A DNA stretch of 64,000 bases, from IMG/VR virus record IMGVR_UViG_3300031867_000013, positions 53,887 through 117,886 of that record; one strand, given 5' to 3'. How positions within the stretch are numbered: position 1 is the stretch's first letter; each line of letters begins with the position of its first letter. Both the position numbers and the translations under genes were made by a program. The stretch comes from a virus (lineage: Duplodnaviria; Caudoviricetes). Below are positions 4,282-11,391 of this stretch, one piece after another. Below the pieces are notes generated by a model that saw only the letters and a list, made by a program, of their open reading frames with translations, searched no databases and had not been told where the DNA came from.

Positions 4282-4730
4282 ATATTTTTATAGTTTTATA
4301 TTTTTATATGTATATACAAAAGGTAATTCAAAATTCTCCAAAAATTTTTCGACACAAAGAGGATATACATATAAGAAGTGAAATATTATTTAGTGTTTTT
4401 GAGGCATTTCATTTAGTATTTTTGGGGTGTATTATTATATGTTTTTGGGATAAATAATGTTCAATATAATAGACATTATAATTTATAGCGCAATAAAATT
4501 TATATGGCGCAACATAAAGATATAAATACATATATTTAAATAAATTTCGGCAAAAACATAAAGGTGCAGAATTTAATTAAAAATCTATTTGGGCGAAAAA
4601 ATAAATAAAGAAAAGAAGATAAGTATATAGATAAAAAATAATATAATATGCTATAATTACATTTTGACATATAGCGTTACATAGGGGTAACTTGAAGTCT
4701 GAAAAAATTTGAACGACTGGAATAACGTAT

Positions 4731-4886
4731 TGAGAACGATTCTCACTTGAACCCCGCGGAGGTAGTTGAGAATGATGATCAGTTGAGAACGATTCTTAAT
4801 TGATAATGGATTCTCATTTGAGAATGGTTTTCATTTGGGAATGATTCGTAATTGATAATACGTTCTCAAATGAGAATGGATTCTCA
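4731..4886. promoter_or_regulatory. tandem array of 8 Fur-box-like palindromes
   Basis: TGA(G/T)AA(T/C)-N1-2-ATTCTCA-type units at 4731, 4767, 4784, 4801, 4819, 4836, 4853 and 4871; 17-18 bp period from 4767 on; compare Fur 7-1-7 TGATAATnATTATCA. Confidence 0.7.
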
Positions 4887-4893
4887 ATTAGAA

Positions 4894-4932
4894 CGTGCAT
4901 AAAAATTTATGGTGTATGAATAAAAATTCATC
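4894..4932. promoter_or_regulatory. tandem ARG (ArgR/AhrC) boxes
   Basis: CGTGCATAAAAATTTATG, 3 bp gap, TATGAATAAAAATTCATC; canonical 18-3-18 arrangement. Confidence 0.6.
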
Positions 4933-5236
4933 ACATAAAAGTATGCTTTTTTTGCATAGATTCTTTCATTTTATGCTTTTTTCGTTTTCCTGCATTTTTT
5001 CGGCGTTTTCTTTTTTCGCACATAGCGGAAGGATATTTTCATATATAGCCATAAAACGCGCAGAAAAGCCCCTAGAAACGACTAAAACATCTTGCCCTAT
5101 AGTTTATACTTAAAAAATGCTTTAATGGCTTAGAGGTGATCCCAGCGAGTTTAGAAGGAATTTAGATATTTATATAGGACTTTATACTCTACAAAAAAAT
5201 TTCATAGGACTTTCGGGCAAAAATGAGAAAAAGATA

Positions 5237-5265
5237 TTGCAAATATATTGTCCCTCTGATATACT
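5237..5265 (+). promoter_or_regulatory. sigmaA-type promoter for the + strand mini-operon
   Basis: TTGCAA-17 bp-TATACT with extended -10 TG. Confidence 0.7.
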
Positions 5266-5315
5266 TAACATGATCAGAAAATCACACAACAAAACAGCGA
5301 AGGGAGGCGAAAATA

Positions 5316-5462
5316 ATGGCGTTCAGACATTCTTTCAGCGTTGGATTTATGGCAAGGCAAAACAAGCCTGACATGGTAACAAAGAAAACTCTTGTACACT
5401 TCGCAAGCGTACCAGCAAAAGCAGGACGGACGGCGAAAAAAGCAGACAAGGCGAAGAAGTAA
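5316..5462 (+). CDS. 48-aa basic peptide MAFRHSFSVGFMARQNKPDMVTKKTLVHFASVPAKAGRTAKKADKAKK
   Basis: GGGAGG RBS; first gene after the promoter; hairpin GGGAAGGGCT/AGCCCTTCCC follows. Confidence 0.65.
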   Translation: MAFRHSFSVGFMARQNKPDMVTKKTLVHFASVPAKAGRTAKKADKAKK

Positions 5463-5522
5463 AAAAGGGCAAAGGGAAGGGCTAATAAGCCCTTCCCGAT
5501 AATAAAAGAGGAGATATATATT

Positions 5523-7765: not shown

Positions 7766-7784
7766 TATAGGGAAGATTATTTTA

Positions 7785-8702
7785 TCAGCCTACCAATGTT
7801 GAAAGCAATTCTAAAGCATTGTCAAGCAAAGCATTTCCGCGAATAACGCTTTTCATTTGATTTTCCCTGTAGGTCTTGGTCATGCGGGCAGGTTCAGAAT
7901 GATAGGCAAAATCCGATACAGCCTGCAAAAATCCATAAGCTGTGCCGCGCAAATTGCCTAAATCATCAGCGTTATAGGCTGAAATTAAGCCGCTACGTTG
8001 ATTTTCCACGATGTCCCGTTTGCGCGGCGTAGCGTCAGCAGGGAGCGGGAGCAAATTCCCAACGAGCGCATTAAACATAGTGTTTGAAACGTGAATACTT
8101 GCAAGGCGTTCTGTTTCTTGCTGAAAAATGGTACGATAGGAATTTTCATGTTCCATGATATTCCCGACCATTTCCAACTTCCCTGCTACGTCTCCTTTGT
8201 GGAGAAGGGAAAACGACCGAACGGCTTTCTTGAAGGCAAGGTTCAAAGTGTTAGAACAAGCAGGACGGACGGGAGTGATGGCGGCGCGAATTGCGCCTTT
8301 CCCATCATGCGTACTTGAGAAAACAACATACATTTTCATTGATTCGCCAAGGGTCATAAATTCGGGGACTTCTACGCACATCCATATTGTTTTGCCACCA
8401 CTGACAATTCCCGCCGAAACGAATTTGAAATCTGTCAAATACGTTAAGAAGGAAAAAGCATCTTTGTTTTGTACGGTCTGATAACGGTCTGATACCACAC
8501 CAAGAAAAGCGTTATTGTCAGAACGGACGTTTACCTTCATGGGTGTTTCGAGGATATTACCGTCTGCAAGGCGAATCAATGCGGGAGTTTGTACGACTTC
8601 CCAGTTCATATCAGCAAGGGAAATTGCGCTTTCCACATCCACCGCGCCCGAAATATCCTGTCCATACTTCCAAGGCTCTACACGATTCATCATTTTCAAC
8701 AT
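7785..8702 (-). CDS. DUF932 / TIGR03299-like phage-plasmid protein
   Basis: PW...DWEV...VRSD...LGVVSDRYQTVQN..AF...SAG...HDG...TPVRxxCxNTL; start at MLKMMN after AAAGGAG. Confidence 0.8.
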   Translation of the reverse strand: MLKMMNRVEPWKYGQDISGAVDVESAISLADMNWEVVQTPALIRLADGNILETPMKVNVRSDNNAFLGVVSDRYQTVQNKDAFSFLTYLTDFKFVSAGIVSGGKTIWMCVEVPEFMTLGESMKMYVVFSSTHDGKGAIRAAITPVRPACSNTLNLAFKKAVRSFSLLHKGDVAGKLEMVGNIMEHENSYRTIFQQETERLASIHVSNTMFNALVGNLLPLPADATPRKRDIVENQRSGLISAYNADDLGNLRGTAYGFLQAVSDFAYHSEPARMTKTYRENQMKSVIRGNALLDNALELLSTLVG

Positions 8703-9347
8703 TTTCAACACTCCTTTTTTAAAATAGATGATTAACCTATACATATTAAACCACAAACAAATAATTATTGCAAGCATTTTTTTTATAAAAATCATAAAAA
8801 AATTTTCCTTCCTATTATAAGGGAAAAATTTTTATAATTTACATATCTATTGAAATTGAGAATAATTTTTATTTGCCCATCGAGGATTTTATAATTTTCT
8901 GACAATTCCATAGGAAGATATAATAATATTCTGAAAATTTCAGGCGAATAGAGGAACACAAAATTTTCTGAAAATTTATAAAAATTTGACTTCCATATAA
9001 TTGTTTTAAGCGATTTTTTCAGACTATTCCATATATTTATACTAATAAGAATTTTTCGTGTCTTAAAACTAATTTCTTAAAGTATTGAAAATACTGACTT
9101 TTCAGGCTATTATGACAATTATAAACATAAATGTAAATATTCTGAATATTATACTAAATATTTAATGTATGGATTCTTATATATAGTATAATATTCTGAC
9201 AGATATAATATTCTGATAATTTTATGGCGCAAATAAAGATTTCAAAAAATTATGTGTTCCTTTAATAGATTAAAGTATAAAAATGTCAAGATATATATAT
9301 ACAATAAAAAATTCCCCCGCAAAAAGCAGGGGAATATGTATATATAT

Positions 9348-9524
9348 TTATTCTTCCTCCTTTTGTACGTCTACGACTTCTTTTACACCCAAGAAACGGA
9401 AATTATGCAAGTCAGAAGGAGTAAACCACTTTTTGCTTGCAATTTTAGCCGCTTCTTTTTCGTTCTTTGCATCAACGTAAATCTCCCCCGTAAAAACAAC
9501 GTCTACTTGCACTTGATACGTCAT
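9348..9524 (-). CDS. 58-aa hypothetical protein MTYQVQVDVVFTGEIYVDAKNEKEAAKIASKKWFTPSDLHNFRFLGVKEVVDVQKEEE
   Basis: AAAGGAGATGTT RBS, upstream promoter and downstream hairpin at about 9311-9336; below the ORF-track size cutoff. Confidence 0.75.
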   Translation of the reverse strand: MTYQVQVDVVFTGEIYVDAKNEKEAAKIASKKWFTPSDLHNFRFLGVKEVVDVQKEEE

Positions 9525-10405
9525 AAGAACATCTCCTTTTCATATAATAAATTCAACCTAACTATATTATACACATTACAGGATATAATGCAAGTGTTTT
9601 TTATAAAAAATCCTAAAATATTTTTCTTTCTATTATAAGGAATTGTCAGAATATTTAGTGTCTTTTGACAATGCACATTTGTTGGAACATTTTGTATTCT
9701 ATATATGGTAAAAATCATACTATTCTGAATATTTGCCTTGCTAGAGTAAGAGATTAAATTTTCAGAAAATTTCAAATTTGTCCACGGCATATCAAAATTT
9801 TCAGAAAAATCTAAATAATATAATACGTCAAATATATCTGAAATGTGCATAAATACTGACAATTAGGAATATTTCGGCGCAAACAAAAAGGAAACATAAT
9901 ATTCAGAAAATTAGGCAATTTTTTCCTATATAGAGAAATACAAATTAGTCAGAAAATTATAAAATATAAGAATAATATAATATGTCAGAATATAGGCGCA
10001 ACATAAAGGAATATGAATTTTCAGATAATTCTTATATATCTTATTATTCTTATATTTCGCGCAAAACAAAAAGGGATAAATATTCAGACAATTATATATA
10101 ATCATATATTTCTATATAATATTATATTTCTATATATAATATAATAATCAGACAATATAGAATATTATATGTATTCTACCAATATACATTTGTCAGAAAG
10201 TTTTGTATTTTCCTATAGGGAAAATTTATACTTTTCTGAAAACTTTCCTTGCGGCACTAAGGAAGTATAATTATCAGAAAATTATGATTTTGTCCACGAA
10301 TAATCTGAAATTTAATATTCTGACAATTTAAAATAAACTTTTTACTTGACAAATACAAATATAGGCAAATAGTACCAATAAAATAGAATGTATGTACGGG
10401 CTGGG

Positions 10406-10490
10406 AAGCCTTGAAATTAAAGGAAAATCGTCTGTATTCGACGAAAAAAGACTACCGAATATAAATATATGCGTACCATATAAAAAACGA
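10406..10490 (+). repeat. 85-bp block repeat, copy B
   Basis: aligns without gaps to 7139-7223. Confidence 0.8.
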
Positions 10491-11310
10491 CTGGCAAGGC
10501 TGCCAGATAGGTTAAAATGGATTTTAAGTATTGACAAAAACCTAAAATTTTATCATTCTTTGACTTTTTGTCCAATAAAGTTATATGTCTATATATAATA
10601 TAAATAGACATAATAATATGAATTGTCAGAAAATTAGGGCGCGGCAAAAAACAAAAAAGAGAAAGAGAATCATTATATATAGAGAGAATATATATCAAAT
10701 GAAAATAATTATTATTATATGATAATGATTATAGCTATATATATAGACAATATTGCTATTTTTCATAGTTTTCTGAAAATTTCTATATTTATGGTTCTTT
10801 AGTGTATTAAAGCACTAAATTAGTATGCTATTAACGTATTTATTCTTCTTTTCTTTAGTATAGTAAAGTAAGCGAGCGAAACAGGGAATATTTTTCACTT
10901 TTTGTCAATACTTCAAATTTTCAAAATTTAATATGAATAAAAACTATTTTCTTAATACTATAAATTTTCTATTTATTATTAATACTCTAAAATATAATTC
11001 TATATATTCTTTCTTTCTATATATCCATATATTTATATACTATCCCTCTTTCTTTTTTGTTTTTTGCGCCCAGGATAGTTTTATATATTATAGTATTATA
11101 TTTATATATATTAGACTTTATATATACTCCCATCTTTTTCTTTGTTTTCCGCGCCAAATATATATTATAGTTATATATAAAACATTATATTATGTATCCT
11201 CTTTTCTTTTTATTTTTGCCGCCAAAATATCCTTGAAATATACTTTATTTTATATATGAAAGTATACTCATATATTCATAAATAAATCAAACATACTTTC
11301 TATTATATAA

Positions 11311-11382
11311 ATATATGAACATATAAATATATGAACAATCATTCATATATATTATATTCTTATATGAACATATATTCATATA
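11311..11382. promoter_or_regulatory. ArsR/SmtB (CzrA-type) operator-like palindromes
   Basis: ATATATGAA-CAATCA-TTCATATAT (11327-11350), TATATGAA-CATATA-TTCATATA (11361-11382), plus a half site at 11311. Confidence 0.6.
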
Positions 11383-11391
11383 TAGACAAAT

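What the first reader, a model, noticed from the sequence alone, without database searches (positions are those of the whole stretch)
4480..11390. Phage multi-regulator operator array: about 7 kb tiled with binding sites for several host global repressors (candidate DNA decoy/sponge system)
Seen in sequence: the largely non-coding region between the + strand block and the early-gene array is ordered, not random AT-rich DNA. It carries 8 tandem Fur-type boxes (4731-4886) and an ArgR 18-3-18 box pair (4894-4932). It also carries about 30 CodY boxes in four clusters (6758-10781), GGAC-N4-GTCC-type palindromes, and SmtB/CzrA-type boxes (11311-11382). Established knowledge: these match the operators of the Firmicute sensors of branched-chain amino acids/GTP (CodY), iron (Fur), arginine (ArgR) and zinc (CzrA/SmtB). 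I recognised no CodY, Fur, ArgR or ArsR homolog in the window, so the binders would be host proteins. Many sites are not at any promoter; for example clusters I and II lie between converging terminators. Copy numbers far exceed what one operator needs. Inference, three non-exclusive roles: (a) the replicating genome titrates host repressors in trans, derepressing amino-acid and metal genes without any phage protein, like a natural Fur titration assay; (b) abundant host proteins coat the first-entering end, ratcheting or shielding it; (c) the phage senses host nutrient status to gate early genes. I am not aware of a described phage system combining such arrays.
Basis: partly seen in the sequence, partly recalled or inferred. 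Interest (0 to 1): 0.95.

Follow-up and report, generated by a model that had tools for sequence, protein, structure and literature searches.

The report
CodY-box array in phage DNA
A 118-kb uncultured phage of a Gram-positive (Firmicute-type) host carries about 30 near-perfect copies of the DNA site read by CodY, the host's nutrient sensor, packed into 4 kb of mostly gene-free DNA. The phage therefore probably recruits or soaks up that host protein, but the other claimed host-regulator sites are weak or absent.

Summary
The core observation holds. Of the 26 sites in the 117,886-bp genome within 2 mismatches of AATTTTCWGAAAATT, 24 lie at window 6758-10781; all 11 sites within 1 mismatch lie there too. 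Dinucleotide shuffles expect 0.2.

The same 15-mer (AATTGTCAGAATATT) forms local arrays in otherwise unrelated Firmicute-type phages. These include the non-coding start of the terminal repeat of cultured Bacillus phage Belinda. In four uncultured records the boxes sit in the 9-nt register typical of CodY operators.

The phage genome encodes no CodY, Fur, ArgR, ArsR, XRE or sigma-70 domain, and no protein family is shared by all array-bearing phages. Host CodY is therefore the best candidate binder (about 0.5). A sponge role is untested.

The "multi-regulator" reading is mostly unsupported:
- The "Fur" array is a real 17-18-bp palindrome array but departs from Fur-family boxes.
- There is only one good ARG box.
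- The "CzrA" boxes are ambiguous AT-rich repeats.
- No GGAC-N4-GTCC palindromes exist in the region.

About 36% of the region is coding (six small genes, a DUF932 gene, a 58-aa gene).

This scan had already noted CodY-type arrays on other phage DNA. I found no published description.

The parts
4730..4893 (.). The binder is unknown.
4894..4932 (.). ARG-box-like pair in an 18-3-18 arrangement. The right box is good (1 mismatch); the left box is poor (4 mismatches).
   Evidence: sequence
5316..6716 (+). Cassette of six small genes (48, 39, 88, 90, 46 and 70 aa) with strong Shine-Dalgarno sites and 33-46% GC. Two match PHROG families of unknown function.
6715..6732 (.). Bidirectional terminator hairpin that closes the small-gene cassette.
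6758..6964 (.). CodY-box cluster I: 6 boxes at 6758, 6793, 6850, 6898, 6924 and 6950.
7040..7320 (.). Copy A of a duplicated element of about 260 nt. It has TTGACA-N16-AATAGT and two hairpins whose stems are conserved while their loops differ.
7328..7487 (.). CodY-box cluster II: 4 boxes at 7328, 7418, 7444 and 7473.
7785..8702 (-). DUF932 gene at 45% GC. The likely start is the ATG at 8702, preceded by AAGGAG. Its terminator lies at 7739-7764.
8893..9251 (.). CodY-box cluster III: 7 boxes, six of them in the same orientation as the DUF932 gene and upstream of its promoter.
9348..9524 (-). 58-aa gene with an AAGGAG ribosome-binding site. Its terminator lies at 9311-9335.
9641..10328 (.). CodY-box cluster IV: 13 boxes, including the perfect site at 9757.
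10340..10570 (.). Copy B of the duplicated element.
10621..10781 (.). Two outlying CodY boxes, at 10621 and 10767.
11311..11383 (.). Its identity is ambiguous.
11396..11421 (-). Terminator that ends the long minus-strand gene block.

Best explanation
**What the region is.** The region is an accessory island of a 118-kb siphovirus-like phage of a Firmicute. Three GC-richer gene cassettes sit in about 4.6 kb of ORF-free AT-rich DNA: six small genes, a DUF932 gene and a 58-aa gene. That DNA carries about 30 dispersed, near-optimal copies of the 15-bp CodY operator (AATTnTCAGAAwATT).

**Consequences (inferred).**
- Transcription that starts in or crosses the clusters becomes dependent on the host's nutritional state, through operator or roadblock action on the cassettes and on non-coding transcripts.
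- As the genome replicates, thousands of strong sites would draw CodY away from host operators.

**Shown versus inferred.** The motif, its enrichment and its recurrence in unrelated phages are shown. Binding by CodY and either consequence are inferred.
For: - **Motif and enrichment.** There are 32 sites within 3 mismatches of the CodY consensus, 2 of them perfect and 9 with one mismatch. Of the genome's sites within 2 mismatches, 24 of 26 lie in this 4 kb, against 0.16-0.25 expected.
- **Variable positions match real boxes.** The variable positions (4/12 = W, 5/11 = K/M) are the ones that vary in boxes predicted before genes reported as directly CodY-regulated. The dominant 15-mer is listed as the predicted box of thrC in S. 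salivarius (PMC5966866).
- **Chromosomal control.** The same two-box pattern, scanned over 185,579 species genomes, hits one chromosomal locus in 10 Enterococcus species. It lies directly upstream of an amino-acid permease gene, which is typical CodY regulon content.
- **Other phages.** The same 15-mer forms local arrays in Bacillus phage Belinda (371-1451, in the non-coding start of the terminal repeat). It also does so in G001-G005, G007 and a mis-binned phage contig. Reversed-pattern controls give 0-1 in the phage records, and 8-13 scattered hits across the two whole MAGs.
- **No shared phage protein.** No protein family is shared by all six compared phages. A sigma-like family (phrog_5767) does not track the arrays.
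- **CodY geometry.** In G001-G004 the boxes sit in a sharp 9-nt register (9, 18, 27, 36 ...), the known geometry of overlapping CodY sites (PMC10415144).
- **Firmicute affinities.** All phages tested for this have Firmicute-phage affinities.
- **No phage-encoded regulator found.** The phage has no CodY HTH, Fur, ArgR, ArsR, HTH_3 or sigma70_r4 domain.
- **Not a promoter half.** No partner promoter hexamer sits at a fixed distance from the boxes.
Against: - No binding data exist, and the host is unknown.
- In this phage the boxes are isolated 15-mers. None forms the 24-nt overlapping pair on which CodY regulation mostly relies and which binds far more tightly in vitro (PMC10415144).
- The TCAGA core is almost invariant. 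In host regulons the C7-G pair is often missing (PMC10415144), so the binder could have stricter specificity than CodY.
- The box is asymmetric: G at position 5 occurs 11 times, its mirror once, and the central base is biased. This is unexpected for a symmetric homodimer.
- Relatives defined by DNA polymerase (Flasso, phiCTP1), by TerL of G001 (GR1, VPE25) or by synteny (G008/G009, as far as sequenced) lack arrays. Conservation within this phage's own lineage therefore could not be shown.
- Small divergent DNA-binding proteins would escape blastp and the Pfam models used.
Confidence: 0.5

Rival explanations
1. A phage-encoded DNA-binding protein of unrecognised fold, not host CodY, binds the boxes. 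It could be an early-to-middle switch repressor, a nucleoid-like coat or a partition/organiser protein, with a specificity that happens to resemble the CodY box.
For: - The core is conserved more strictly than in host CodY regulons, and the box is asymmetric.
- There are no overlapping 24-nt sites in this phage.
- Many phage ORFs have no family assignment.
Against: - Phages with no shared protein family at blastp 1e-4 carry the identical 15-mer.
- The 9-nt register in other phages is CodY-specific geometry (PMC10415144).
- No HTH_3, CodY-HTH, ArsR, Fur, ArgR or sigma r4 domain is present in the genome.
Confidence: 0.2
2. One reading: one region tiled with operators for several host repressors (CodY, Fur, ArgR, CzrA/SmtB and a GGAC-palindrome binder) acts as a multi-regulator decoy.
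For: - A real palindrome array lies at 4730-4893, a good ARG box at 4915 and a real repeat at 11311-11383.
- Earlier notes of this scan report Fur-, MetJ-, Rex- and HrcA-like sites in other phage control regions (e1-189203, e1-5760509). These notes are unchecked here.
Against: - The palindrome units carry G at half-site position 4. Fur, PerR and Zur boxes all have T there (own knowledge of the Bacillus boxes). Only 1 unit is within 2 mismatches of the Fur box.
- A single ARG-core match is not significant once one allows for the many motifs considered.
- The 'CzrA' repeat fits the ARG consensus as well as it fits anything.
- GGAC-N4-GTCC is absent.
- None of these motifs recurs in the other array-bearing loci.
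Confidence: 0.08
3. The ORF-free repeat field marks a physical genome end: a terminal repeat, a first-entering DNA segment or an injection-stop or packaging region, as in phage T5. The boxes would serve DNA entry, end protection or packaging rather than gene regulation. This does not exclude CodY as the bound protein.
For: - In Belinda-type phages the box array is the non-coding start of the 3-kb terminal repeat.
- DUF932 homologs lie inside the terminal repeats of Streptomyces phages and near the ends of linear plasmids.
- Contigs of both relatives stop 4-8 kb past PhoH.
- The T5 injection-stop region is an untranslated repeat field with 8 host DnaA boxes (bioRxiv 10.1101/866236).
Against: - The record has no terminal repeat, and the region lies mid-record.
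- The capsid and terminase are not T5-like.
- In G001, a complete record with direct terminal repeats, the array lies mid-record.
Confidence: 0.12
4. The boxes are core promoter elements read by RNA polymerase (a -35-like TTGTCA or a -10-like TAATAT), that is, a field of early promoters.
For: - Promoter-like sites are somewhat enriched: 85 against 59 +/- 6 in shuffles.
- Several of the best ones overlap boxes, for example 6841-6814(-), 6900-6928(+) and 7330-7357(+).
- In the uncultured phage G002 the box sits at the -10/+1 position of promoter-like sequences before many small genes.
Against: - No partner hexamer sits at a fixed distance from the box in this phage. TANNNT enrichment is found only inside the box itself.
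- The boxes occur in both orientations and between converging terminators, with no gene to drive.
- No phage sigma factor was found.
Confidence: 0.07

Closest known systems
CodY operators of Firmicutes: the 15-nt CodY box AATTTTCWGAAAATT and the 24-nt overlapping sites such as hutP and ureA (PMC10415144)
   Same: It has the same 15-bp pseudo-palindrome, and the same positions vary. In other array-bearing phages it also has the same 9-nt overlap register. The pattern picks out an amino-acid permease promoter in Enterococcus chromosomes.
   Different: The sites sit on a virulent-looking phage rather than in a host regulon. There are about 30 sites in 4 kb, where a host promoter has 1-3. In this phage they are isolated, not overlapping. 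The core is conserved more strictly than in host sites, and many sites lie away from any gene start.
phi29/Nf: Spo0A boxes on a lytic Bacillus phage genome that repress early promoters and replication (PMC2731898)
   Same: A lytic phage carries binding sites for a host global regulator that reports nutritional or developmental state, so that phage development follows host physiology.
   Different: phi29 has a handful of sites at defined promoters and origins, with binding shown by footprinting. Here there are about 30 sites for a different regulator, mostly in ORF-free DNA, and binding is untested.
Phage T5 injection-stop region: the untranslated repeat field of the terminal repeat, with 8 conserved DnaA boxes (bioRxiv 10.1101/866236)
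   Same: It is a large untranslated stretch with several families of repeats, inverted repeats and palindromes, plus an array of host-protein boxes, lying next to small early-type genes.
   Different: This phage is not T5-like by capsid or terminase. A terminal location is not shown here. The boxes are of a different type, and the role of the T5 boxes is itself only proposed.
Fur titration assay, or regulator titration by multicopy operators
   Same: The concept is the same: many high-affinity operators on a replicating DNA can derepress a regulon without any encoded protein.
   Different: That is a laboratory artefact or tool, not a described natural phage strategy. Nothing here shows derepression.

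Membership tests
CodY operator | 15-bp pseudo-palindrome matching AATTTTCWGAAAATT within a few mismatches | tested here: met
   There are 2 perfect sites, 9 with 1 mismatch, 13 with 2 and 8 with 3.
CodY operator | More sites than composition predicts | tested here: met
   24 observed against 0.16-0.25 in dinucleotide shuffles. 24 of the genome's 26 sites lie in 4 kb.
CodY operator | Two boxes overlapping by 6 nt (9-nt offset) to form a 24-nt cooperative site | tested here: not met
   No 9-nt pairs occur in this phage, and the offset-9 partner quality is at baseline. The feature is met in G001-G004.
CodY operator | The host encodes CodY | not testable with these tools
   The host is unknown. 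The DNA polymerase and major capsid protein are closest to those of Firmicute phages.
CodY operator | Bound by CodY in a BCAA/GTP-dependent manner | not testable with these tools
   This needs EMSA, DAP-seq or ChIP.
Fur-family box (Fur/PerR/Zur 7-1-7) | 7-1-7 inverted repeat | tested here: met
   Units such as TGAGAAC-G-ATTCTCA have this architecture.
Fur-family box (Fur/PerR/Zur 7-1-7) | Match to TGATAATNATTATCA or its PerR/Zur variants | tested here: not met
   One unit is within 2 mismatches and two within 3. No unit matches the Zur or PerR boxes within the thresholds used. G replaces the T at half-site position 4.
ARG box pair (ArgR/AhrC) | Two 18-bp boxes TNTGAATWWWWATTCANW separated by 2-3 bp | tested here: inconclusive
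   The box at 4915 has 1 mismatch and the box at 4894 has 4. The 3-bp spacing is correct. A single strong match is not beyond chance given the many motifs considered.
SmtB/ArsR (CzrA) operator | 12-2-12-type inverted repeat with TGAACA...TGTTCA arms | tested here: not met
   There is no TGAACA-N4-TGTTCA match within 2 mismatches in the region. The repeat fits the ARG consensus equally well.
T5-type terminal-repeat untranslated region | Lies within a long terminal repeat or first-entering DNA | not testable with these tools
T5-type terminal-repeat untranslated region | Untranslated field with several repeat and palindrome families plus host-protein boxes | tested here: met

The most novel reading that the evidence does not exclude
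Arrays of near-optimal CodY operators would be a protein-free, convergently acquired phage device. As the genome replicates, it would titrate the host's master nutrient regulator and so derepress amino-acid supply, protease and stationary-phase genes to the phage's benefit. In some phages the arrays sit on the first-entering terminal repeat, so they would act from the moment of injection.
Probability: 0.15. Interest if true: 0.85.

Novelty: new variant of a known kind. Interest (0 to 1): 0.6.

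Why it matters
**If CodY binds.** Lytic phages of Gram-positive bacteria would be reading, or disabling, the cell's central nutrient sensor through DNA alone. That would add a route of host takeover or host sensing to the phi29/Spo0A precedent.

**Why it looks functional.** The device is patchy across unrelated phage lineages, which suggests repeated gain and therefore a real function.

**Testability.** Bacillus phage Belinda and its relatives carry the same array in their terminal repeat and grow on B. thuringiensis, so the idea can be tested directly. 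This uncultured window mainly adds an AT-rich, probably clostridial-type example.

The evidence points to one host regulator, not a panel of four or five.

Tried and rejected
- **tRNA and Rfam.** Nothing was found in the window, and nothing in the region down to E = 1.
- **DNA similarity.** The region has no meaningful match in the phage collection.
- **Relatives through the 205-aa neighbour.** None were found.
- **Relatives through PhoH.** Two contigs of one related lineage were found. Both end before any equivalent region and show no arrays in what is sequenced.
- **IMG/VR scan for the 17-bp palindrome array.** The pattern was too unspecific. Its hits share no DNA with this phage, and none of the CodY-array loci carries the unit.
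- **GGAC...GTCC palindromes.** None lie in the region.
- **Fixed-distance -10 partner for the boxes.** None was found.
- **Shared binder among array-bearing phages.** No protein family is common to all of them. The sigma-like phrog_5767 occurs in phages without arrays and is absent from several with arrays, so it was rejected as the binder.
- **Host from the DUF932 gene.** Only distant homologs (25-32% identity) were found, in Actinobacteria, Proteobacteria and crAss-like phages, so this is uninformative.
- **Literature.** Searches found no description of CodY boxes on phage genomes.

Full report
**Context.** The window is the last 64 kb of a 117,886-bp IMG/VR virus record, with no end repeats and a CheckV completeness of 100%. 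The genome is about 30% GC, and the region's surroundings are about 25%.

The phage encodes a family-A DNA polymerase, DnaB, primase, ribonucleotide reductase, a UvsX-like recombinase and an RNA ligase/kinase. It has a siphovirus-type structural module. Its polymerase is closest (about 37%) to Clostridium, Streptococcus and Bacillus phages. Its major capsid protein is closest (about 40%) to Streptococcus, Psychrobacillus and Brevibacillus phages. A Firmicute host is therefore likely but unproven.

The finding lies where a plus-strand block (ending at 4213, terminator 4247-4272) meets the long minus-strand block (ending at 11542, terminator 11396-11421).

**What the region contains.** It is not simply non-coding. 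Six small plus-strand genes with strong ribosome-binding sites lie at 5316-6716 (33-46% GC). A DUF932 gene lies at 7785-8702 on the minus strand (45% GC, Pfam E = 9e-43). A 58-aa gene lies at 9348-9524 on the minus strand. These form three GC-richer cassettes, probably acquired. The remaining 4.6 kb or so has no ORF with a credible ribosome-binding site, no tRNA and no Rfam match.

**CodY-like boxes.**
- Thirty-two sites within 3 mismatches of AATTTTCWGAAAATT lie at 6758-10781. They form four clusters: 6 at 6758-6964, 4 at 7328-7487, 7 at 8893-9251 and 13 at 9641-10328. Two outliers lie at 10621 and 10767.
- In the whole genome, 24 of 26 sites within 2 mismatches and all 11 sites within 1 mismatch lie in this region. 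Shuffles that keep dinucleotide content expect 0.16-0.25. The exact pattern AATTNTCAGAAWATT occurs 13 times, all here, and its reversed control occurs 0 times.
- When the sites are oriented on the central base, only the box plus 2-3 following bases is conserved; the flanks are not. These are therefore independent short sites and not copies of a longer duplicated unit.
- The oriented consensus is AATTnTCAGAAwATT(AT). The core T6 C7 A8 G9 A10 is nearly invariant. The box is asymmetric: G at position 5 occurs 11 times and its mirror once.
- Clusters I and II lie between the terminator of the small-gene cassette and those of the DUF932 gene. They have no protein gene to control.

**Is it a promoter element?** TANNNT hexamers are enriched only inside the box's own right end. 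None is enriched at the distance expected for a -10 partner of TTGTCA. Promoter-like sites are modestly enriched in the region (85 against 59 +/- 6), and several overlap boxes. One example is TTGGCA-16-TATAAT at 6841-6814 on the minus strand, with a box at +1. Boxes acting as operators of some promoters is therefore plausible. Boxes being promoters themselves is not supported.

**Who binds?**
- Six-frame HMM searches of the entire phage genome found no CodY HTH, Fur, ArgR, ArsR-type HTH_5, XRE-type HTH_3 or sigma-70 region 4.
- A scan of 2.9 million viral contigs for two boxes 15-45 nt apart returned only 38 stretches. Many of them carry far more boxes than the two required.
- The dominant 15-mer in all of them is the same, AATTGTCAGAATATT.
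- Whole-record scans show tight local arrays with zero reversed-pattern hits:
  - G001, a 92-kb record with terminal repeats: 34958-37939;
  - G002: 709-12251;
  - G003: 31790-40747;
  - G004: about 8.8-12.5 kb;
  - Bacillus phage Belinda (Wphvirus): 371-1451, repeated at 159.7 kb. This is the non-coding first half of its roughly 3-kb terminal repeat.
- Further arrays lie on a 140-kb contig binned as Peptococcaceae, on G007, and on a contig binned as Bacteroides. That last contig's terminase is closest to Bacillus, Streptococcus and Staphylococcus phages.
- Terminases of G001, G002 and G004 are closest to those of Geobacillus/Enterococcus, Geobacillus/Bacillus and Clostridium innocuum phages respectively.
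- No protein family is shared by all six compared phages at blastp 1e-4.
- A sigma-like family (phrog_5767) is present in G001-G003 and G007. It is also present in GR1 and VPE25, which have no arrays, and it is absent from this phage, Belinda, G004 and G005.
- A conserved host protein is thus the simplest common factor.

**Two controls tie the motif to CodY.**
- The same pattern scanned over one genome for each of 185,579 species gave 16 hits. Ten are one locus in ten Enterococcus species, where the two boxes lie directly upstream of an amino-acid permease gene (PF00324, E = 3e-75). This is the kind of gene CodY regulates.
- CodY-regulated regions typically hold two 15-nt boxes overlapping by 6 nt, which bind two dimers cooperatively. 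One extra base pair destroys the cooperativity (PMC10415144). In G001-G004 the spacing between boxes shows exactly this register: sharp peaks at 9, 18, 27, 36, 45 and 54, with almost nothing at 8 or 10. About half of the strong boxes there have a partner with at most 4 mismatches at +/-9.

**Caveats for this phage.**
- Here, and in Belinda, the boxes are isolated. No 9-nt pairs exist, partner quality at +/-9 is at baseline, and spacings are 26 (three times) and 29-57. Single consensus sites bind EfCodY only at about 0.7 uM in vitro (PMC10415144).
- The invariant core and the asymmetry are stricter than in host regulons, where the C7-G pair is often missing.
- Close-enough relatives to test conservation were not informative. 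Flasso and phiCTP1 have no boxes. The syntenic relatives G008 and G009 (PhoH 54%, Ro60-like protein 57% identity) show none in what is sequenced. Both of those contigs stop 4-8 kb beyond PhoH, before any equivalent region.
- I put CodY binding at about 0.5 and a phage-encoded binder at about 0.2.

**The other claimed operators.**
- The array at 4730-4893 is real: 7.4 copies with a period of 17-18 bp and consensus TTGAGAATGGATTCTCAA. Its units have the 7-1-7 architecture of Fur-family boxes. However, they carry G where the Bacillus Fur, PerR and Zur boxes all have T (own knowledge). Only one unit is within 2 mismatches of the Fur box. The binder is unknown. Origin-type iterons or an operator of the adjacent cassette are equally possible.
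- The ARG-like pair has one good box; its core occurs exactly once in 118 kb. Its partner is poor, although the 3-bp spacing is right. This is suggestive but not beyond chance once one allows for the number of motifs considered.
- The repeat at 11311-11383 is real. It has no SmtB-type arms, and it fits the ARG consensus as well.
- GGAC-N4-GTCC palindromes do not occur in the region.
- None of these motifs recurs in the other array-bearing loci.
- The multi-regulator reading is therefore not supported.

**Function.** Nothing computed here separates titration, nutrient gating and an entry or architectural role.

Circumstantial points favour an early or terminal character of the region:
- the Belinda array lies in the terminal repeat;
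- DUF932 homologs lie within the terminal repeats of Streptomyces phages and within 1-3 kb of the ends of linear plasmids;
- the relatives' contigs break nearby.

Known precedents are the Spo0A boxes of phi29/Nf, where binding is shown and a host state regulator shuts down a lytic phage (PMC2731898). A second is the DnaA-box array in the untranslated T5 injection-stop region, whose role is only proposed (bioRxiv 10.1101/866236).

I found no paper describing CodY boxes on phage genomes. Earlier notes of this scan, however, report CodY-type arrays on several other phages, so within the scan this is a repeat observation on new DNA.

**Verdict.** The window holds a real and striking array of CodY-type operators on a phage. 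It belongs to a recurrent, patchily distributed feature of Firmicute phages. The binder is probably host CodY but this is unproven, and the decoy function is unproven. Most of the additional host-regulator claims fail. It is a new variant of a known kind, namely host global-regulator sites on lytic phage genomes. Interest is 0.6.

Noticed in passing
window 7040-7320 and 10310-10570: A duplicated element of about 260 nt (76% column identity). It has a conserved TTGACA-N16-AATAGT, blocks such as AAGCCTTGMAATTA and ATATAAATATATGC, and two hairpins whose stems are kept while the loops differ. On the minus strand these hairpins are followed by T-runs. It may be a small RNA gene or a composite protein-binding module.
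   Followed up: partly
window 4503, 4547, 4592, 9226, 9875, 9993, 10058, 10637 (+); 11040-11230 (three copies, -): A second repeat family: a GC clamp, then an A-rich run ending in AAAGG(A) (for example GGCGCAAACAAAAAGGAAA). It often lies directly upstream of a CodY-type box. It has no ORF and no obvious hairpin, and remains unexplained.
   Followed up: no
window 7785-8702 (-): Homologs of the DUF932 gene are gene 2 inside the terminal repeats of 132-kb Streptomyces phages (two places per record). They also lie 1-3 kb from the ends of Streptomyces linear plasmids, so the family appears linked to replicon termini.
   Followed up: partly
window 7496-7558, 7016-7030 and 7073-7084: A TGTCAATAGAC motif occurs as a 30-bp tandem pair. 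It also forms 43-nt inverted repeats (7053-7095 / 7518-7560) that bracket cluster II and copy A.
   Followed up: no
G001-G004, Belinda and this window (box spacing): Besides multiples of 9, spacings of 26, 35, 44 and 53 (9n-1) recur across unrelated phages. Spacing 26 is mostly between divergently oriented boxes (10 of 14 pairs) and occurs three times in this window. This suggests a shared higher-order grammar.
   Followed up: partly
L187 6103-6150 and nine other Enterococcus loci: Two near-perfect CodY boxes 33 nt apart lie directly upstream of an amino-acid permease gene, conserved in ten Enterococcus species.
   Followed up: partly
G005:C1:64090-68467 (L198, L210): A 140-kb, 27% GC contig binned as Peptococcaceae carries a 4.4-kb box array in 9-nt register. 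The array lies at the junction of a plus-strand and a minus-strand gene block, the same architecture as in this window. The contig shares no proteins with this phage.
   Followed up: partly
L211 and L212 (G008, G009): The only syntenic relatives found share the terminase, Ro60-like protein, exonuclease and PhoH. Both contigs end 4-8 kb downstream of PhoH, roughly where this region would begin. This is consistent with an assembly break at repeats or at termini.
   Followed up: partly
G001:86547-87569, G002:14123-14776, G003:28626-29099, G007, Geobacillus phage GR1, Enterococcus phage VPE25: A sigma-factor-like PHROG family (phrog_5767) links these phages as a lineage, but its presence is independent of whether box arrays are present.
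   Followed up: yes
G002 (L009), for example 883, 2523, 5119: In this uncultured phage the box sits at the -10/+1 position of sigma-A-like promoters (TTGCAA-18-TGTAATATTCTGACAATT, then GGAG and a gene) before many small genes. Unlike in this window, this is a clear operator-at-promoter arrangement.
   Followed up: partly
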